Counted from the first letter of the stretch, positions 2,466 through 8,577 are shown. The stretch: DNA of 43,411 nucleotides from a virus (IMGVR_UViG_2541047907_000004:1-43411), one strand, 5' to 3'. Numbers and translations: made by a program. The notes: a model not told the origin generated them from the sequence alone.

Positions 2466-4547
2466 TCAATTTATTGATAACATTTGCGCATTTGTCCCAA
2501 TTTTTGCAAATGTTGCAACTTTCCATGATGCGCCAGCAATGTCATTGCCTGAAATTGTAATTATATTGCCATCAGTTCCTGGTGCTTTGTTATTACCGAT
2601 AGTAGTCTTACCATCAATGTTTATTATTGTAATTTTCTGCCCTGGTGAGATGTAACGAAGTCTAGACAGCGTTGTATTCGATGCTTGGCTGATTGTTGCT
2701 TGTGATGTATGGGTTACTACAGGAGCCACACCAGTTATTGTATTAAAAGAACTTCCCGTCCCCCTAAACATTACACCAAAGTATATATTTTGTGTGCATA
2801 TAATCAATCTATCACCAACACCGGGGTATATTAATGATGGATCATACGCCATTTTATAGTTATTTGTTTCATGATATGTATTTTTTAGTAACAACACCTC
2901 AGCGCCAGATCCAGCTTTAACTCGCGGAGGTGTAGAGCAATAAAAATCAGCATATGATAGTAGGTCGAACATATAAGATGTAACTAAACTATTTGGATGT
3001 TCGATATCAACCCCACCTTCAAAGAATATGCTACCTGAACTTGTGCAAAAAGCTGTTCTTGGCTGCTGAGGTGATGAATTTATGTTTCTATATTTAAACG
3101 ATCCCATTACTGTAAGTGCCGCTTCTCCTGAAGACTGAAGACATGCTTGCTTAATTACCCCTTGCTGATTTGCAGTGATGTTTATGATGCCAAACTTGAC
3201 GTCAGTCCCAGCACCAACGCACAATATATTGTATGCACTAGGATCTTGACCAGGACCGGTGAAATTGGCATTGACATCACACACGCAGTTAACAGACCCA
3301 ACTGATCCTGTAGCACCATCTAAGAAATAAGAAATAGAAGAAAGACCAATACCGGATATACTCTCTATTCTAAAACCTGCTGTAGTATGAAGTTTTACTG
3401 GTGAGCACGCCAGAGGAGAGCCATCTACATATATTTCACCACAATAAAAACCCTTACCATGGCCATTTGTGTACAATGCATGACCTTCATGACCTTGCGA
3501 TGCAGTGATGTTTTTGTGATAAATACTACCTATGCGCTGATTATCAAATACAACTCCAAATACCCCGAAATCAACAGTATTAAAAATAGCTTTATCTATT
3601 TTCGCAGACACTCCTGTGAACCACACACCAGCAATAAACCCATAAACATCAATTGTATCTATATAGAACCCTGATACATCTCTATTTTCGTAATAATTCA
3701 TCCAAATTGACGCCCCATAAGATTTCCAGTCTCCAGATGTGACGTATGAATAACCGAGGGTGTTACTGCTTATAACAGCCGTTCTATCACCATTGTACTC
3801 AAACTTCCAGTATCCGAGCATTTTAACACGTGGCGTACGTACCTCAAATACAGGATACCCCCACAGCAATTGCTCAAAGATAGCATTATCAGAAATTAGA
3901 ACCATGTCAGGATTTGGAATTATAATCCACCCAGATATAGTGTATTTTAGATTTCCAAATTCTATTCTCTTTGCACCGCTATTTAGAGCAGCATTAATTG
4001 CTGCCATATCAGCAATGTAATCGCCAACACCAATAGAACCATGTTCTGCAAAGTCGGTAACAGATACTGTTTCTGAGTTTTTATCGTGTTGTGTACGTAG
4101 AACTGAGCCAACGAAAGGTTGCTTAACGCCAAGCATTGCATCACCTTTCGAGTCATCTTCAGCATATACTCCTGTTTGGGATAACTGCTGAAGAAGATTT
4201 GGTCCGAACTGATCAGGGTCATACTTCAGCACATTAGGAAAATAGAACTGCTGCGCACCATATGCATCATAAACAGCCATCGAATGACCTTGCACGGTTA
4301 CAAACTTGGCAATCTGTCCGTTATATACAGGATAACCAGCAGCGTTGATAACTATTGGCTGCGCCACCTGAACATGAGAGCCATCTTCTCGTTCCAGATA
4401 TACAGGGATCTGGTTTTCTGGATTTACCGGGTCAGTGTCAATTTTACCGATATAAATTTTGCCATTGGCAACCGCTTTAAAAGAACGCGCCATAGTGAAG
4501 AGTTGCGATGGCATACTCACTACAACATTGGCTGTAATGTCTGTCAT
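2466..4547 (-). CDS. Tailspike protein: P22 gp9-like N-terminal head-binding domain plus a divergent receptor-binding/enzymatic domain
   Basis: 693 aa; N-terminus [50 protein letters not shown]... closely matches remembered P22 tailspike N-terminus; the remainder is G/S/T/N-rich beta-helix-like and not P22-like. Confidence 0.85.
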
Positions 4548-4647: not shown

Positions 4648-5571
4648 TCAGTAGTTATGTACTGAAGGAGGTAATTCTTTATTCTTAAGTCTCATCCATG
4701 CGGAAAGATTCGTTGGTCCGTCTGGCTCATTAATATCAACATCTCGTGTGTGATTGATTAAAACGTCTCTCGCCATTCCGATAACATACGAGAATTCATG
4801 ACCGTAGTCGTAGCATCTGCCGGAATAGTTCGATTGAATTTGTTTTAATGCCGGATACAGTTCGCGGAATAATGCCTGTGAGCGGTTGGCATAATCCCAT
4901 AACCATACAAGGCTGTTTGCTTCTTTTGCAGAAAGCTCGTTTGCCTTCTTCTCTTGTTTGCCGATGAACTCACCTTCAAGTGGAACTCGAGCTGCAAGTG
5001 ACAGTGCTTCTGTAAACTGCTCCTCACTGATTTCTTTGTACGAACATCCAAAATGGGATTTCAGTGACGACCACATGGTGATCATCGCCTTCGCCTGTTT
5101 TTCTTTTGGCAGAGACTGACCGCGACTCATGACGAGTTGTTTAATGGTTTCCTGCTGTTCAGTGGTGATTTTACCCGGCAACGCCTTTTTAGCTTTGCGC
5201 GGGTTAACTACATGGCCTTTAGTCCAGTATTCGTAGAGCACATCGTCACACTCTTCCTGATACTGGATTACCTTGTCGCGGATTTCAGGGCGGACTTTGT
5301 TAGGGCTGATGGTTTGCAGCCAGCCATTCAGTTTACGTAAAGCAAGGCAAATCATGGTCTGCACACCGCCAACTGAAGGTATTGCGATTTCCACAATACC
5401 TTTAGCAAATCTTTGTTTTAACTTTGTAAACTGTGAAGCCCAATCCATACCCATACCTTCAACGATAGGTTTCATTGGGGTGTACGGCTCACCGTTGTGA
5501 TTGACAACATAAAGCTCTGCGCCGTGGAATGGTACATTGATAGTAGATACTGCTGTTGCTATACTTTTCAT
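4648..5571 (-). CDS. ant: Antirepressor (Ant-like; AntA N-terminal plus KilAC-like C-terminal organisation)
   Basis: 307-aa ORF immediately downstream of arc and upstream of the tailspike, the position of P22 ant; sequence-level assignment is from gene order and general antirepressor features, not exact recall. Confidence 0.6.
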
Positions 5572-5640
5572 GTCGTTAATTCCTATGCGTGGTTTTACGA
5601 TACCGAAGCCCTGACTGTTCCAGCAGTTGGGGCTTCAACT

Positions 5641-5802
5641 TTACGCGCCAATGCGCCCTTCCTTCTTAAAGCTTTCCATTACTCTCTGATAAATCTCAGA
5701 GTTAACAGACCGACCATTCTCTTCCGCCACCTTGCGGACCAAATCCAATACTTCTTTAGGCCACCGCAAATTGAACTGCGGCATTTTGCTCATTCCTTTC
5801 AT
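5641..5802 (-). CDS. arc: Arc repressor (ribbon-helix-helix)
   Basis: 53 aa MKGMSKMPQFNLRWPKEVLDLVRKVAEENGRSVNSEIYQRVMESFKKEGRIGA, essentially the remembered P22 Arc sequence; the ORF-track ORF extends upstream but the Arc start is ATG at 5802. Confidence 0.9.
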   Translation of the reverse strand: MKGMSKMPQFNLRWPKEVLDLVRKVAEENGRSVNSEIYQRVMESFKKEGRIGA

Positions 5803-5818
5803 ATTCACCTCACAATAT

Positions 5819-5865
5819 GGGTCCACCGTGGACCTATTGAGAATATAGTAGAGTGCTTCTATCAT
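5819..5865. promoter_or_regulatory. immI control region: Mnt operator palindrome (gggtccaccgtggacct, 5819-5835) and Arc operator (atagtagagtgcttctatcat, 5845-5865) between divergent arc and mnt
   Basis: Perfect inverted repeat GGTCCACCGTGGACC and the 21-bp ATAGTAGAGTGCTTCTATCAT motif, both matching remembered P22 Omnt and Oarc. Confidence 0.75.
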
Positions 5866-5892
5866 GTCAATACACTAACTTGGAGTGATGGC

Positions 5893-6147
5893 ATGGCTAG
5901 AGATGATCCGCACTTTAACTTCCGTATGCCTATGGAAGTAAGGGAGAAATTAAAATTCAGGGCGGAGGCGAATGGGAGATCAATGAACTCCGAGTTGTTA
6001 CAAATCGTCCAAGATGCTCTATCAAAACCATCGCCTGTGACTGGCTATCGCGACGAAGCTGAACGCTTGGCTGATCAGCAGGCAGAGCAGTTCAAGACTG
6101 TTGTGTTTGAGACACTTAAAAAGATTTATGGCAAGGATGATAAATAA
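5893..6147 (+). CDS. mnt: Mnt repressor (maintenance of lysogeny; ribbon-helix-helix)
   Basis: 84 aa MARDDPHFNFRMPMEVREKLKFRAEANGRSMNSELLQIVQDALSKPSPVTGY..., matching remembered P22 Mnt; divergent from arc. Confidence 0.9.
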   Translation: MARDDPHFNFRMPMEVREKLKFRAEANGRSMNSELLQIVQDALSKPSPVTGYRDEAERLADQQAEQFKTVVFETLKKIYGKDDK

Positions 6148-6683
6148 TGCTGCACACAATTCATTTCTTATGCCCCGTTAACACCGCCACTGTTGGGCAA
6201 CTTCAGAACCACTGTCTCACCGCATTATCTCAAGGCGCAACTGAATTAAATATCCATATATCAAGTCAGGGAGGGGAAACTGCCGCTGGTTTTACTGCGT
6301 ATAACTTTCTTAAGTCACTCCCTGTTGCCGTTAGAACTCACAACATAAGCAATGTTGAATCCATAGCTAATATCGTTTTCCTGGCTGGCTCAGAACGTTT
6401 CGCAAACCCATTATCAAGATTCCTGTTACATCCTCTATTATGGGGCTTTGCCACCCCAGCCGCCGACCATGCCAGATTGAGAGAGTACGGGAAATGCCTC
6501 GATAACGATCTTGATCGCTTCGTTGAGACGTTCAATATCGACATCGGAACCCATATTAGGTGGGCATCCCTGATAGCAGACTCGACCATTTTGGATGCTA
6601 ACAAGGCTCTTGAGCATGGCATAATTAATTCCATAAAAACTGCAAGGCTGGTATCCAATCAGGCAAACTGGTGGGTTGTTTGA
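6147..6683 (+). CDS. ClpP-like (S14 family) serine peptidase-fold protein, translationally coupled to mnt
   Basis: 178 aa; ATG overlaps the mnt stop (TAATG); blocks HISSQGG, ISNVESIANIVFLAG and SRFLLHPLLWG align with ClpP YINSPGG, GQAASMGAFLLTAG and SRVMIHQPLGG (from memory), with Ser and His at triad positions. Confidence 0.6.
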   Translation: MLHTIHFLCPVNTATVGQLQNHCLTALSQGATELNIHISSQGGETAAGFTAYNFLKSLPVAVRTHNISNVESIANIVFLAGSERFANPLSRFLLHPLLWGFATPAADHARLREYGKCLDNDLDRFVETFNIDIGTHIRWASLIADSTILDANKALEHGIINSIKTARLVSNQANWWVV

Positions 6684-6760
6684 TGGGTAAATCATGATTA
6701 CTCCTATGGCCGGAAAGATTCGCATCCTTAAATTTAGTGAGCAAGGATTACCATCACACC

Positions 6761-6946
6761 TCAACAGCTTCCGCGTCCCTGAGTAATTCTGTCGCGGATT
6801 TGCTTCTTACGGTGGTTTAAGCTGGAGAGCTTGGCTTCTGCTTCTGATATTTGCGCATCAAGATCTTTAAGCTCAAGATCTGAAAGTCGCTGGTCAAGCA
6901 GGGTTTGGTTCAACTCAATGTTGTTCAGGCGTTCTTCTATGGTCAT
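6761..6946 (-). CDS. Small coiled-coil protein (61 aa), unknown function
   Basis: ATG preceded by AGGAG RBS; sequence MTIEERLNNIELNQTLLDQRLSDLELKDLDAQISEAEAKL... has heptad-like repeats; convergent with the ClpP-like gene. Confidence 0.4.
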   Translation of the reverse strand: MTIEERLNNIELNQTLLDQRLSDLELKDLDAQISEAEAKLSSLNHRKKQIRDRITQGRGSC

Positions 6947-7087
6947 GATTTCTCCTTGTTGAGGTTGATGTGAAACGATTGATTGTATACGCACTCTTTT
7001 GTTAGCTAGTAGCTTTGCTTAATCGCAAGATAAAGTTTCTGATTAATCCCTAAAAATCAAAAAATAAAGTTAAAACAGGTACATGAT

Positions 7088-7291
7088 ATGGAATGGATCA
7101 TAGGATTTGTTGTTCTTATCTTCATAGCCAGTATGTTTAAACCAAGAAGTTGCGATATCTGTGGTGCTGGATTTAAGAAAAAGTACTTCACATGGACTAT
7201 CGATGGAAAGAAACAGCATCTTTGTCCGTACTGCAACAGTAAAATGGAGAGACGCAACAGCGATAGACGCTTTAAGGATCGATTTGGTTAA
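7088..7291 (+). CDS. Small membrane-anchored zinc-ribbon protein (67 aa), unknown function
   Basis: N-terminal hydrophobic segment IIGFVVLIFIASMF followed by CxxC...CxxC (CDICGAG...CPYCNS); followed by a strong terminator. Confidence 0.45.
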   Translation: MEWIIGFVVLIFIASMFKPRSCDICGAGFKKKYFTWTIDGKKQHLCPYCNSKMERRNSDRRFKDRFG

Positions 7292-7306
7292 CCATTTTAT
7301 CTCCAA

Positions 7307-7337
7307 CAAAAAAACCCACCTGACGGTGGGTTTTATT
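7307..7337. terminator. Bidirectional intrinsic terminator (acccacc-tgac-ggtgggt, A-run upstream, T-run downstream)
   Basis: Perfect 7-bp stem, 4-nt loop, flanked by aaaaaaaa and ttttatt; serves convergent genes 7088-7291 (+) and 7336-7755 (-). Confidence 0.7.
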
Positions 7338-7755
7338 AGTGCTTGTATAGGTTGAACTCTCTATCAAGCCATATAACAAAAAATGTCGATCCAAGACGAT
7401 AACCAACCATGGCTTTCAAATCATCAAATCTAAAAGCCAAGAAATGATCTACGTCTTCCGTTATATGACCGGGGATACCAGCTTTAATTGCACCCCTTGC
7501 AATCTTCTCAAATCCAAGCTTATGCCTACCTTGCTGCTTAATCTCTGCCCATGTTAGTTGACTTAATCTGTATAATTTATCAGCTAAGCCAGCTTTCTCA
7601 TCTTTTTGGCATTTCGTTATGCAGTGAGAGCTTTGGATGTAACAGAATGAAAATTTCGGTTTCTTTTGATCTGAATTCCCCCCTGACTGCGGCCCTAACT
7701 TTAACTTACCTGTAGATTCAGCAGGGGGGATAATCCTTTTAGATTTTCTTGCCAT
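7336..7755 (-). CDS. Unknown 139-aa protein downstream of and coupled to the DUF4065 gene; candidate toxin/effector
   Basis: ATG at 7755 lies 4 nt after the upstream gene's stop; basic N-terminus, C-x6-C-x3-C cluster, beta-rich C-terminus ending ...GYRLGSTFFVIWLDREFNLYKH; the ORF also has an upstream in-frame start at 7830 overlapping the neighbour. Confidence 0.45.
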   Translation of the reverse strand: MARKSKRIIPPAESTGKLKLGPQSGGNSDQKKPKFSFCYIQSSHCITKCQKDEKAGLADKLYRLSQLTWAEIKQQGRHKLGFEKIARGAIKAGIPGHITEDVDHFLAFRFDDLKAMVGYRLGSTFFVIWLDREFNLYKH

Positions 7756-7759
7756 CTCG

Positions 7760-8209
7760 TTAGTTAATCCGAGTTGCAAAGTACTCTGCCATCTCCTTAG
7801 AGCTAATTTCAGAACCACCAACACCCTCAATATAGTTTGATCTCCATGGTGACTCTTCGTGTGTCATGTTCCTCAGTTTCCAGGCAGAAAATTGCCCAAA
7901 AACATCCCAGACTTCTTCTAATAGCTCTAACTGTTCTTCGCTGAATTTTTCAGCATCAAAAGACTCTGGAGAAGGGATAGCTCCATTACCATATTGTTTA
8001 TAACGGCGATAAAGCTCAGGGACAACAGGGCCATGCATCCAAGCTTCCATCTTATTCTGAAAAAGAGGCTCACCAAGCAACGCCAATGAAAACCCCTGAG
8101 CATAGTAAACAAGCTTTTGTAATTTTAAATTAGAGATTGTGTCACCGCTATCCTCGTCACACCGCGACAGGAAGTAGTCGGCGACATCAAAACAAGTAAG
8201 CATGAACAC
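7760..8209 (-). CDS. DUF4065 / Panacea-domain protein (GepA/SocA-like), candidate antitoxin
   Basis: 149 aa; GGAGG RBS 5 nt upstream of ATG; motif block NLKLQKLVYYAQGFSLALLGEPLFQNKMEAWMHGPVVPELYRRYKQYG matches my recollection of the DUF4065 family signature. Confidence 0.65.
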   Translation of the reverse strand: MFMLTCFDVADYFLSRCDEDSGDTISNLKLQKLVYYAQGFSLALLGEPLFQNKMEAWMHGPVVPELYRRYKQYGNGAIPSPESFDAEKFSEEQLELLEEVWDVFGQFSAWKLRNMTHEESPWRSNYIEGVGGSEISSKEMAEYFATRIN

Positions 8210-8577
8210 ACCTCCATCTTGATAGCCACAGCTAAGTATCCAACTATGTCAAATGTCATTTAATACTATAACAAAGCTATCAGCAATCCTTCGGAGGCTA
8301 ACTTACAACCACTTTAGCGACATGTTTAAACCATTACGTTTCACATTTACTGCATTTTCGCCGAAGTTACCTATAAGGTAATGTCACATTTCCTGCAAGT
8401 TTCATGCAATGTTGAAAAGTGAGCTATTCACTTTTCTATGACACTAAACACCAAAAATAGCACTTTTTGCTAAATCATTCGTCCAAGTTGTGGATGGTTT
8501 GTCGTTGACACGTTTTCACACACCACTCCACCAATAAAGTATCATCTGGTATCCTGCTCAAAACTAAGGAGGTTGGT

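What the first reader, a model, noticed from the sequence alone, without database searches (positions are those of the whole stretch)
7088..7337. Small membrane-anchored zinc-ribbon protein with a strong bidirectional terminator
A 67-aa ORF encodes one TM helix followed by CxxC...CxxC, then a perfect 7-bp-stem terminator flanked by A- and T-runs that also ends the convergent DUF4065-pair operon. Small membrane proteins in prophage cargo loci often mediate superinfection exclusion or modulate host membrane proteins; this one is uncharacterised to my knowledge.
Basis: partly seen in the sequence, partly recalled or inferred. Interest (0 to 1): 0.4.

Follow-up and report, generated by a model that had tools for sequence, protein, structure and literature searches.

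The report
Prophage membrane-anchored zinc-finger cargo gene
A real, strongly conserved 67-residue gene in the cargo region of a P22-like E. coli prophage encodes a membrane-anchored zinc-finger protein of an unnamed but widespread family; it usually rides behind the phage's Mnt maintenance-repressor gene, so it is a reasonable but untested candidate for a prophage-made protective protein.

Summary
ORF 7088-7291 (+) encodes 67 aa: an N-terminal hydrophobic anchor (residues 3-17), then C22xxC25-x20-C46xxC49 and a basic tail. The hairpin at 7311-7334 is real.

The gene is genuine. Homologues are 59-97% identical, keep the cysteines, and differ mainly at third codon positions.

The window is a P22-like prophage. 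The ORF lies in its "ant moron" (immI: sar RNA, arc, ant, mnt) on the mnt strand. The ORF plus 128 bp upstream is a ~349-bp insertion relative to phages Emek and phiv205-1, whose identical terminator serves the convergent toxin-antitoxin pair alone.

I found no convincing promoter of its own. In 27 of 45 distinct phage contexts the gene starts within 60 nt after an Mnt-like gene on the same strand. On a 5-kb plasmid it follows an RHH-antitoxin/ParE pair. It therefore probably rides on maintenance-operon transcripts made in the carrier state.

It matches no Pfam, NCBIfam or PADLOC family and no solved fold. It belongs to a broad unnamed family of at least 306 clusters sharing the anchor and Cx2C-x20-Cx2C. 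Function is inferred only: a cytoplasm-facing membrane zinc finger, possibly for exclusion or defence. "DUF4065 pair" is wrong: only one of the two genes is Panacea/DUF4065.

The parts
7088..7291 (+). 67-aa CDS for the membrane-anchored zinc-finger protein. A weak Shine-Dalgarno AGG lies at 7077-7079, 8 nt before the ATG.
   Evidence: ORF list. 18 close homologues all start M-E-W. Differences by codon position against L014 are 8/1/35. dN/dS is 0.06-0.14 where dS is not saturated.
7094..7138 (+). N-terminal hydrophobic anchor, residues 3-17 (WIIGFVVLIFIASMF). Predicted topology is N-out/C-in.
   Evidence: Hydropathy and charge distribution. AF2 helix 2-16. In fused relatives a signal peptide plus periplasmic domain precedes this helix, which places the finger in the cytoplasm.
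7151..7234 (+). Cys4 zinc-binding core: C22xxC25, a beta-hairpin (residues 34-45), then C46xxC49 at the start of a helix.
   Evidence: C22, C25, C46, C49 and S58 are invariant across 36 diverse relatives. Spacing is exactly 20 residues in nearly all of 142 relatives. AF2 mean pLDDT is 82.8.
7226..7285 (+). Basic C-terminal helix, residues 47-66, containing the invariant Ser58.
   Evidence: AF2 model and alignment.
7311..7334 (.). GC-core hairpin (AAAACCCACC TGAC GGTGGGTTTT). It terminates the convergent toxin-antitoxin operon on the - strand (7 U) and is the first terminator-like site on the + strand after Pmnt. It is also a module junction.
   Evidence: It is identical in Emek and phiv205-1, which lack the ORF. 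The homology block 6714-7336 ends at the hairpin in other E. coli prophages. The motif CCCAC-N3-8-GTGGG occurs once in the window against 0.11 expected, and directly follows the gene in 46 loci.
6960..7308 (+). The ~349-bp segment (128 bp upstream, the ORF, 17 bp downstream) that is absent from phages Emek and phiv205-1. GC is 36% against 46% for the window.
   Evidence: Alignment and composition. The last ~50 nt before the ATG resemble the mnt-to-gene junction of myovirus-type islands.
5837..5865 (+). Pmnt-like promoter (TTGAGA-17-TATCAT), face to face with a Pant-like promoter (5870-5842, - strand). It is the probable source of the transcript that reaches the ORF.
   Evidence: The P22 immI layout serves as reference.
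5893..6147 (+). mnt (Arc/MetJ-family maintenance repressor, 84 aa).
   Evidence: RefSeq calls the homologue an 'Arc family DNA-binding protein'.
6147..6683 (+). ClpP-like protease gene, overlapping the mnt stop (TAATG). It lies on the same transcript path toward the ORF.
   Evidence: Pfam CLP_protease 6.8e-12. NCBIfam. Sequence.
6761..6946 (-). Coiled-coil ORF (Emek orf61 type, phrog_7586), divergent from the small gene. It travels with the gene in E. coli prophages.
7336..7755 (-). 139-aa partner of the Panacea antitoxin and putative toxin (phrog_8366). It is not DUF4065. It ends at the shared hairpin.
7760..8203 (-). Panacea/SocA (DUF4065) antitoxin-domain protein.
   Evidence: Pfam SocA_Panacea 1.9e-24. 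NCBIfam SocA antitoxin. RefSeq annotation.

Best explanation
SHOWN. The ORF is a genuine, selectively maintained gene. It sits in the immI/'ant moron' cargo region of a P22-like E. coli prophage, on the strand of the maintenance repressor mnt and opposite the late operon. It encodes a short N-terminal membrane anchor followed by a basic Cys4 finger (Cx2C-x20-Cx2C). The module is a single gene. It occurs in podovirus and myovirus prophages, on plasmids, and as chromosomal orphans in Enterobacterales.

INFERRED, step 1 (about 0.6). It lacks a strong promoter of its own. It is transcribed in the lysogen as the distal part of the Pmnt transcript: mnt, the clpP-like gene, an antisense stretch of the orf61-type gene, then the ORF. 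That transcript would stop at hairpin 7311-7334, which also terminates the convergent Panacea toxin-antitoxin operon.

INFERRED, step 2 (about 0.8). The protein inserts N-out/C-in, so the zinc finger and basic helix sit on the cytoplasmic face of the inner membrane.

INFERRED, step 3 (about 0.3; the committed mechanism). From that position it protects the carrier cell and its mobile element. It would bind a nucleic acid or protein that arrives at the inner membrane during infection, giving exclusion or defence analogous in role to P22 SieA. Because nearly the same protein serves podovirus, myovirus and plasmid hosts, the target would be generic rather than one phage's ejection proteins.
For: - Real gene: 18 close and at least 306 distant cluster representatives. 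Cysteines are invariant. Third-position substitutions dominate, for example 8/1/35, and dN/dS is 0.06-0.14.
- Anatomy: hydropathy and charge. The AF2 model has pLDDT 82.8 with helix 2-16, a knuckle, a hairpin and helix 47-66.
- Topology: relatives with a signal peptide plus a periplasmic SH3_3, Sel1 or other N-terminal domain before the same anchor and finger.
- Locus identity: Lederbergvirus hits, sar RNA at E=1e-16, Pant/Pmnt. It corresponds to the 'ant moron', where P22 keeps mnt-orf59a and sieA (PMC2629481; PMC10883804).
- Expression logic: the best promoter score upstream is 7.2, equal to the random median, against 13.3 for Pmnt. No + strand terminator lies between Pmnt and 7311.
- Placement behind a repressor gene: an Mnt-like gene ends no more than 60 nt upstream on the same strand in 27 of 45 distinct phage contexts, sometimes overlapping by 1 nt. 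The gene lies behind a CI-like repressor in L011 and behind a TraY-RHH/ParE pair on a 5-kb plasmid.
- Cargo and defence neighbourhood: Panacea TA here, a YafO TA in L005, a DRT UG4 reverse transcriptase 1.8 kb away on an IncF plasmid, and integrase-adjacent distant relatives.
Against: - No functional data exist, and there is no hit to any PADLOC defence model.
- There is no similarity to SieA.
- In this window the gene is 940 nt from mnt, with an oppositely oriented ORF in between, so read-through is assumed and not shown.
- The U-tract on the + strand is short. Many homologues' downstream hairpins have no + strand U-tract at all.
- 28 chromosomal orphan copies lie between housekeeping genes, with no phage context in the six loci inspected. 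This fits a host-physiology role equally well.
- The anchor is short (15-17 hydrophobic residues).
Confidence: 0.3

Rival explanations
1. It is an accessory of the immunity-I circuit. The membrane-tethered finger would sequester or inactivate a cytoplasmic regulator, such as antirepressor Ant, a host protease or an adaptor. That would add a post-translational safety catch to Mnt's repression of ant and stabilise lysogeny.
Against: Homologues occur without any ant or mnt: 28 chromosomal orphan contexts, L004, and plasmids. Placement behind a ParE TA and behind a CI-like repressor suggests promoter hitch-hiking rather than a specific Mnt/Ant partnership.
Confidence: 0.17
2. It is a lysogenic-conversion factor that modulates a host inner-membrane machine or envelope physiology, for example a transporter, FtsH/HflKC or the secretion machinery. 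There would be no direct role against phages.
For: Orphan chromosomal copies are kept under conservation in many Enterobacterales, between housekeeping genes. The broad family has varied periplasmic N-terminal domains fused to the same anchor and finger, which suggests a generic membrane-proximal adaptor.
Against: The closest relatives are concentrated in prophage immunity islands, next to toxin-antitoxin modules and near integrases. No conserved host partner gene lies in the neighbourhood.
Confidence: 0.2
3. It is a small membrane toxin or abortive-infection effector that damages the membrane when over-produced or triggered.
For: It is a small hydrophobic-anchored protein that recurs next to toxin-antitoxin modules. 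A SymE-like ORF lies downstream of some orphan copies.
Against: Placement in constitutively expressed repressor operons argues against intrinsic toxicity. The conserved, highly charged zinc-finger domain is unlike pore-forming type I toxins. No cognate antitoxin or antisense RNA is evident.
Confidence: 0.08
4. It is a chance ORF or decaying remnant with no function. Only the terminator matters.
For: A 67-codon ORF arises in 16% of shuffled 1-kb regions. PGAP leaves it unannotated in most E. coli genomes that carry it. There is no convincing promoter of its own.
Against: Amino-acid identity is 59-97% across genera while synonymous sites are saturated. The cysteines are invariant. A Shine-Dalgarno sequence is present in homologues. 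The family has hundreds of clusters.
Confidence: 0.02

Closest known systems
P22 SieA (superinfection exclusion A)
   Same: It is a prophage-expressed inner-membrane protein. It is encoded in the same 'ant moron' between ejection-protein gene 16 and mnt, on the mnt strand and opposite the late operon (PMC10883804).
   Different: SieA is 162-164 aa with three predicted membrane spans, has no zinc finger and has its own promoter. BLASTP finds no similarity (E=1.3). Exclusion activity of the present protein is untested.
P22 orf59a (the gene directly downstream of mnt in P22)
   Same: It is a small ORF co-directional with mnt and immediately after it, ahead of a terminator. Homologues of the present gene occupy the same slot in myovirus immI islands.
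   Different: orf59a is hydrophilic, with no anchor and no cysteines. The two sequences show no evident resemblance by inspection.
Moron-encoded small membrane exclusion proteins such as HK97 gp15 (own knowledge; Cumby et al. 2012 appears in the reference list of PMC10883804)
   Same: It is a single small gene inserted in a late-gene region of a temperate phage, expressed from the prophage, with the product anchored in the inner membrane.
   Different: Those proteins have no zinc-binding domain. Their target specificity is defined experimentally, while none is known here.
Generic Cys4 zinc ribbons and treble-clef fingers (Pfam Zn_ribbon_8, DZR_2, zf_Tbcl_Rhp7; NCBIfam FmdB CxxC_CxxC_SSSS; the N-terminal ribbon of archaeal MBF1)
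   Same: It has two CxxC knuckles about 20 residues apart around a beta-hairpin. Sub-threshold HMM matches cover residues 20-60.
   Different: Every match is below the curated cut-off. The present family adds an obligatory preceding membrane anchor, a fixed x20 spacer, and a conserved W36, P47, N50 and S58 signature.
Phage Mu Com (the name JGI gives to two distant relatives)
   Same: It is a small phage-borne Cys4 zinc-finger protein.
   Different: Com is a soluble translational activator (own knowledge). No Com-family Pfam match appeared, even at E<=1. The name is probably an automatic transfer.

Membership tests
Moron (independently expressed insert in a phage operon; Hendrix/Juhala definition as used in PMC2629481) | Present in some and absent from other closely related phages at the same site | tested here: met
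   The ~349-bp segment 6960-7308 is absent from Emek and phiv205-1, whose flanks are otherwise 98.6-99.2% identical.
Moron (independently expressed insert in a phage operon; Hendrix/Juhala definition as used in PMC2629481) | Own promoter upstream | tested here: not met
   The best sigma-70 PWM score in 6900-7095 is 7.2, equal to the median for random windows. Pmnt scores 13.3. The consensus scan finds nothing. Weak or non-sigma-70 promoters are not excluded.
Moron (independently expressed insert in a phage operon; Hendrix/Juhala definition as used in PMC2629481) | Terminator downstream | tested here: met
   The hairpin at 7311-7334 lies 19 nt after the stop codon. However, it is shared with, and older than, the insert.
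Moron (independently expressed insert in a phage operon; Hendrix/Juhala definition as used in PMC2629481) | Base composition differs from surroundings | tested here: met
   GC is 36% for the insert and 39% for the ORF, against 46% for the window.
Intrinsic (rho-independent) terminator, bidirectional | GC-rich stem-loop followed by a U-tract on each strand | tested here: inconclusive
   On the - strand there is a 10-bp stem followed by 7 U, which meets the criterion. On the + strand the same stem is followed by UUUUAUU, which the scan's criterion does not call. Stability is -16.4 and -18.9 kcal/mol. Termination itself was not measured.
Classical zinc ribbon (Pfam Zn_ribbon_8, DZR and related families) | HMM score above the curated threshold | tested here: not met
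   The best match is Zn_ribbon_8 at 16.8 bits against a cut-off of 34.4. All 18 matches are below threshold. The same holds for relatives.
Classical zinc ribbon (Pfam Zn_ribbon_8, DZR and related families) | Four zinc ligands from two knuckles | tested here: met
   C22, C25, C46 and C49 are invariant across 36 diverse relatives. Metal binding itself cannot be tested here.
Classical zinc ribbon (Pfam Zn_ribbon_8, DZR and related families) | Both knuckles carried on beta-hairpins | tested here: inconclusive
   In the AF2 model the second CxxC starts helix 47-66, which is treble-clef-like. The zf_Tbcl_Rhp7 family scores 26.9 against 27 in one relative. This is a prediction only.
SieA superinfection-exclusion family | Sequence or architecture similarity to SieA (about 160 aa, three membrane spans) | tested here: not met
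   BLASTP gives E=1.3 over 9 residues. The present protein has one anchor and 67 aa.
SieA superinfection-exclusion family | Encoded between gene 16 and mnt on the mnt strand, prophage-expressed | tested here: inconclusive
   Position and strand are met. Expression in the lysogen is inferred from the operon layout and was not measured.
SieA superinfection-exclusion family | Blocks DNA entry of superinfecting phage | not testable with these tools
   This needs plating, potassium-efflux and DNA-injection assays, as in PMC10883804.
Known anti-phage defence systems (PADLOC-DB v2.0.0) | Match to any defence-protein model | tested here: not met
   There are 0 families at E<=0.01 for the 67-aa protein.
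Unnamed anchor + Cx2C-x20-Cx2C family (defined here) | Hydrophobic segment immediately before a Cx2C-x20-Cx2C core with W36, P47, N50 and S58 | tested here: met
   Profile search finds 306 cluster representatives at E<=1e-3 and 74 at E<=1e-10. Of the best 150, 142 have the motif and 126 have the upstream hydrophobic 15-mer. Invariant columns are listed.

The most novel reading that the evidence does not exclude
The protein founds a new class of single-gene, membrane-tethered zinc-finger immunity factors. Prophages and plasmids would express it from their maintenance-repressor operons. From the cytoplasmic face of the inner membrane it would intercept incoming foreign DNA or its delivery proteins, giving broad exclusion that is not tied to one phage type. 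The at least 306-cluster family it belongs to would then be an unrecognised, widespread defence or exclusion module.
Probability: 0.2. Interest if true: 0.65.

Novelty: new variant of a known kind. Interest (0 to 1): 0.4.

Why it matters
The ant-moron/immI region of P22-like phages is a classic site for prophage-expressed genes that change how a lysogen deals with other phages; sieA is the standard example.

This work defines a small gene that genome annotation pipelines mostly skip. It belongs to a large family with no name or curated model. It has a conserved regulatory placement behind maintenance repressors in two unrelated virion types and on plasmids.

That gives a cheap, well-posed test. 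Express one 67-residue protein and its Cys mutants, then challenge with phages. If it protects, it adds a new exclusion or defence type and gives a function to hundreds of orphan proteins. If it does not, it is still a tractable example of a membrane-tethered zinc finger with a lysogeny-linked role.

The shared hairpin also illustrates how terminators can act as junctions for cargo exchange.

Tried and rejected
- Curated families. Pfam, NCBIfam, PHROGs and PADLOC gave nothing above threshold for the 67-aa protein. There was only a weak match to phrog_3794 (unknown function) and sub-threshold zinc-ribbon or aMBF1 matches.
- Solved structures by sequence. Only spurious C2H2-like 'KPxxCxxCG' matches appeared, with E>=0.008.
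- Own promoter. None was convincing.
- Known RNA in or around the ORF. Rfam gave only sub-threshold terminator-like matches at the hairpin. The real hit, sar, lies elsewhere.
- Relation to P22 SieA or orf59a. None was found.
- Signal-peptide or lipoprotein reading of the N-terminus. I rejected it: there is no positive n-region and no lipobox, positive charges follow the hydrophobic core directly, and fused relatives fix the finger in the cytoplasm.
- Literature. No paper on this protein or on a membrane zinc-ribbon exclusion factor was found.
- The name 'Mu Com', attached to distant relatives. It is not supported by any family match.
- Conserved synteny around the chromosomal orphan copies. 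There is none beyond a SymE-like ORF in six loci.

Full report
**1. What is in the sequence**

The + strand ORF runs from ATG 7088 to the stop at 7289-7291 and encodes 67 aa: MEWIIGFVVLIFIASMFKPRSCDICGAGFKKKYFTWTIDGKKQHLCPYCNSKMERRNSDRRFKDRFG.

- Residues 3-17 are strongly hydrophobic. Kyte-Doolittle means are 2.68 over 15 residues, 2.27 over 17 and 1.74 over 19.
- Only Met-Glu precedes this segment. The remaining 50 residues carry 14 K/R against 5 D/E and have pI 9.9.
- C22xxC25 and C46xxC49 are separated by 20 residues.
- Nineteen nt after the stop lies AAAACCCACC-TGAC-GGTGGGTTTT (7311-7334). An A7 run precedes it and TTTTATT follows it. Folding energies are -16.4 kcal/mol on the + strand and -18.9 on the - strand, with z-scores of -2.1 and -2.6.

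- ORF length alone is not significant. 16% of shuffled 1-kb regions contain an ATG ORF of at least 67 codons.
- The U-tract is clearly better on the - strand (7 U) than on the + strand (4 U, then A, then UU). The scan calls the terminator only on the - strand.
- The convergent operon is not a pair of DUF4065 genes. 7760-8203 is a Panacea/SocA antitoxin-domain protein (Pfam 1.9e-24). Its 139-aa partner at 7336-7755 has no Pfam match, only phrog_8366 and a weak PADLOC NsnC similarity.

**2. It is a real gene**

A search of 5.8 billion proteins found 18 close relatives, 65-97% identical. They come mostly from Yersinia and from metagenomes, and all are called 'hypothetical'.

- They begin M-E-W, which supports the start codon, and they keep the cysteines. 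The exceptions are one C25S variant and one truncated copy.
- Against five homologous genes the differences fall overwhelmingly at third codon positions. Counts at positions 1/2/3 are 8/1/35 against L014, where 61 of 67 residues are identical at 78% nucleotide identity, and 12/5/44 against L004.
- Nei-Gojobori dN/dS is 0.06-0.14 where dS is not saturated.
- Homologues carry Shine-Dalgarno sequences such as GGAG or AGGAG. The window copy has a weaker AGG 8 nt upstream.

Overlapping ORFs on other frames are therefore spurious.

**3. Where it sits**

The window is a complete P22-like (Lederbergvirus) prophage with its late genes on the - strand. The ORF lies between the gene-16-type injection protein (8908-11028, -) and the tailspike (2466-4547, -).

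This is the 'ant moron' described for P22-like phages. It is a fast-evolving cargo region that holds immunity region I, and in P22 it also holds sieA (PMC2629481).

The window has a bona fide immI:

- ant at 4648-5571 (-);
- sar antisense RNA at 5573-5640, Rfam E=1e-16;
- arc;
- face-to-face Pant (5870-5842) and Pmnt (5837-5865) promoters;
- mnt at 5893-6147 (+), whose stop overlaps the start of a ClpP-like gene at 6147-6683.

**4. The gene is an insertion, and the terminator is older than it**

Phages Emek and phiv205-1 are 98.6-99.2% identical to the flanks. They lack 6960-7308, which is 128 bp upstream, the ORF and 17 bp downstream. In both, the identical hairpin directly abuts the start region of the preceding gene (orf61 in Emek) and is annotated in Emek as the terminator of the orf149/orf161 (Panacea) operon.

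The converse also occurs. In at least seven other E. coli prophages, homology to the window runs from 6714 to 7336 (orf61, the small gene and the hairpin) and stops exactly at the end of the hairpin. Different cargo follows, for example a convergent P63C-domain gene.

So the hairpin is a shared junction at which modules are exchanged.

- The motif CCCAC-N3-8-GTGGG occurs once in the 43-kb window, against 0.11 expected.
- It follows the gene's stop within ~25 nt in 46 related loci.
- In several myovirus prophages a second copy marks the far (ant) end of the immI island.
- In most of those loci the A-run lies on the gene side. That makes them - strand terminators rather than good + strand ones.

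The insert is AT-rich: 36% GC against 46% for the window.

**5. How it is probably expressed**

I found no convincing sigma-70 promoter in 6900-7095. The best PWM score is 7.2, which equals the median best score for random 196-bp windows. Pmnt scores 13.3. No + strand terminator-like site lies between Pmnt and 7311.

Comparative context points the same way. Homologues lie inside an ant-arc-mnt island embedded in the tail genes in these phage and prophage contexts:

- Edwardsiella phage Edno5;
- Klebsiella phage KP12;
- many E217-like myovirus prophages.

They sit directly after the Mnt-like gene on the same strand. Gaps range from -1 nt (stop overlapping start) to about 50 nt.

I took a census of 86 loci, which collapse to 73 distinct contexts.

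| Context set | Mnt-like gene ends ≤60 nt upstream, same strand | Mnt-like gene 61-1500 nt upstream, same strand | None |
|---|---|---|---|
| Phage/prophage (45 contexts) | 27 | 10 (the E. coli P22-like arrangements, including this window at 940 nt) | 8 |
| Genome set (28 contexts) | 0 | 0 | 28 |

Other placements fit the same pattern:

- In L011 the upstream gene is instead a CI-like HTH/S24 repressor.
- On a 5.1-kb ColE1-type Klebsiella plasmid the gene lies 37 nt after a TraY-RHH antitoxin/ParE toxin pair, on the same strand.
- The last ~50 nt before the window's ATG still resemble the mnt-to-gene junction of the myovirus islands (score 31-34 against a null maximum of 26).

My reading is that the gene habitually rides on autoregulated maintenance operons that are active in the carrier state. 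In this prophage it would be the last gene of a Pmnt transcript that stops at 7311-7334. This is inference, not measurement.

**6. What the protein looks like and what it belongs to**

AlphaFold2 with 17 sequences gives mean pLDDT 82.8:

- helix 2-16, the anchor;
- a CxxC knuckle;
- a beta-hairpin at 34-45;
- a second CxxC at the N-terminus of helix 47-66.

An exhaustive profile search shows that the module is widespread.

- 306 cluster representatives score at E<=1e-3 and 74 at E<=1e-10.
- Of the best 150, 142 have Cx2C-(almost always 20)-Cx2C, and 126 have a strongly hydrophobic 15-mer just upstream.
- Across 36 diverse members, C22, C25, C46, C49 and S58 are invariant. W36, P47 and N50 are nearly so.

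Relatives vary in architecture. Some have a second N-terminal membrane span and are about 100 aa. Some have a signal peptide and a periplasmic domain (SH3_3, Sel1 or others) before the anchor. Some have cytoplasmic extensions such as HIRAN.

Those with a signal peptide and periplasmic domain place the finger in the cytoplasm, as does the positive-inside rule. Distant 100-aa members lie beside phage integrase genes. All available names are 'hypothetical', apart from two automatic 'Mu Com' labels that no family match supports.

**7. Distribution**

- The exact module is in 34 of 5,426 complete E. coli genomes, always chromosomal, and PGAP usually leaves it unannotated.
- Only five of 50,697 phage records carry a homologue.
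- 42 IMG/VR contigs carry one.
- Eleven plasmids carry one. One is an IncF plasmid on which a DRT UG4 reverse transcriptase lies 1.8 kb downstream.
- 29 representative genomes, almost all Enterobacterales (Serratia, Morganella, Proteus, Photorhabdus, Xenorhabdus, Enterobacter, Dickeya and others), carry a copy. Nearly all are about 68 aa.
- In the six of these loci I inspected, the copy is an orphan between unrelated housekeeping genes.

Toxin-antitoxin modules recur nearby: Panacea here, YafO in L005 and ParE on the plasmid.

**8. Interpretation**

I am confident (about 0.85) of the following: this is a genuine gene for a bitopic inner-membrane protein with a cytoplasmic Cys4 finger. It is a mobile single-gene cargo module of temperate phages and plasmids.

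Two further points are likely but less certain:

- about 0.6 that it is expressed in the lysogen by read-through from Pmnt;
- about 0.8 that its topology is N-out/C-in.

The biochemical role is not established. I commit, at about 0.3, to a protective role at the inner face of the membrane. This would be exclusion or defence, analogous in role but not in sequence to SieA (PMC10883804). The grounds are:

- the slot it occupies;
- its co-expression with maintenance repressors;
- its autonomy as a single gene;
- its toxin-antitoxin and defence-type neighbours.

Near-identical proteins serve podovirus, myovirus and plasmid hosts. Any target should therefore be generic, such as incoming DNA, a host entry factor, or something else common to these elements.

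The rivals are:

- an immI accessory that sequesters a regulator such as Ant (0.17);
- a host-physiology modulator (0.2);
- a toxin or abortive-infection effector (0.08);
- a non-functional ORF (0.02).

The remaining probability covers roles I have not thought of.

**9. Verdict**

In novelty terms this is a new variant of a known kind: prophage-expressed small membrane cargo in the ant moron, carrying an unclassified but widespread membrane-anchored zinc-finger domain.

Interest is moderate (0.4). It is not surprising to a phage specialist. It is, however, a clean and cheap-to-test candidate that would give a function to a large orphan family.

Noticed in passing
window 7336-8203 (-): This is a two-gene operon: a Panacea/SocA (DUF4065) antitoxin-domain protein (7760-8203) followed 4 nt later by a 139-aa protein (7336-7755). 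The partner has no Pfam family, only phrog_8366 and a weak PADLOC NsnC similarity (1.4e-5). It is probably a PanA-type antitoxin with an uncharacterised toxin.
   Followed up: partly
window 6147-6683 (+): A ClpP-like (S14/'head maturation protease'-like) gene overlaps the mnt stop codon (TAATG). It is therefore part of the maintenance-repressor operon, far from the head genes. This is an odd place for a protease. Other E. coli prophages have small membrane proteins in this slot instead (L018 2260-2699).
   Followed up: no
window 7315-7330; L029 1192-1207 and 3213-3226; L010 3206-3219; many others: The hairpin motif CCCAC-N3-8-GTGGG directly follows the small gene in 46 loci. In several myovirus prophages a second copy sits at the other (ant) end of the immI island. 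Both copies have the A-run on the same side, which makes them - strand terminators. In E. coli prophages, homology blocks end exactly at this hairpin. It looks like an insulating terminator that doubles as a recombination junction for cargo exchange.
   Followed up: partly
window 8578-8907 (+): A 109-aa ORF with an N-terminal hydrophobic helix and a coiled coil (phrog_5962) lies next to the injection-protein gene, on the strand opposite the late genes. The region matches the hkcB/hkcC region of HK620. It is another membrane-anchored cargo protein, at the position where P22 has sieA.
   Followed up: no
window 5573-5640 (+) and 5837-5870: A complete P22-type immunity I control region is present. 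It includes sar antisense RNA (Rfam 81 bits, E=1e-16) and overlapping face-to-face Pant and Pmnt promoters.
   Followed up: yes
E. coli RefSeq genomes, e.g. L007 (NZ_CP122768.1) 4139-4342: The 67-aa gene is present in 34 of 5,426 complete E. coli genomes. PGAP leaves it unannotated in most of them, so it is invisible to annotation-based surveys.
   Followed up: partly
L060-L088 (e.g. L071 Proteus between rbsD and dxs; L075 Dickeya after bioH; L066/L069 Enterobacter/Lelliottia): Orphan chromosomal homologues of about 68 aa sit in AT-rich gaps between unrelated housekeeping genes in several genera of Enterobacterales. In six Enterobacter-type loci a SymE-like ORF lies about 470 nt downstream.
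   Followed up: partly
L092 (Klebsiella plasmid pKC25-20651D) 4219-4940; L093 (E. marmotae IncF plasmid) 5001-8836: Plasmid-borne homologues exist. One lies directly after a TraY-RHH/ParE toxin-antitoxin pair on a 5.1-kb ColE1-type plasmid that also carries a WYL-domain gene. Another lies 1.8 kb upstream of a DRT UG4 reverse transcriptase (PADLOC 2.5e-128), among hypothetical genes.
   Followed up: partly
window 6761-6994 (-): For the orf61-type coiled-coil ORF, the listed GTG start at 6994 is probably an over-extension. The PHROG match and a strong AAGGAG Shine-Dalgarno point to the ATG at 6946. In Emek this gene starts 12 nt after the terminator, leaving no room for its own promoter.
   Followed up: no
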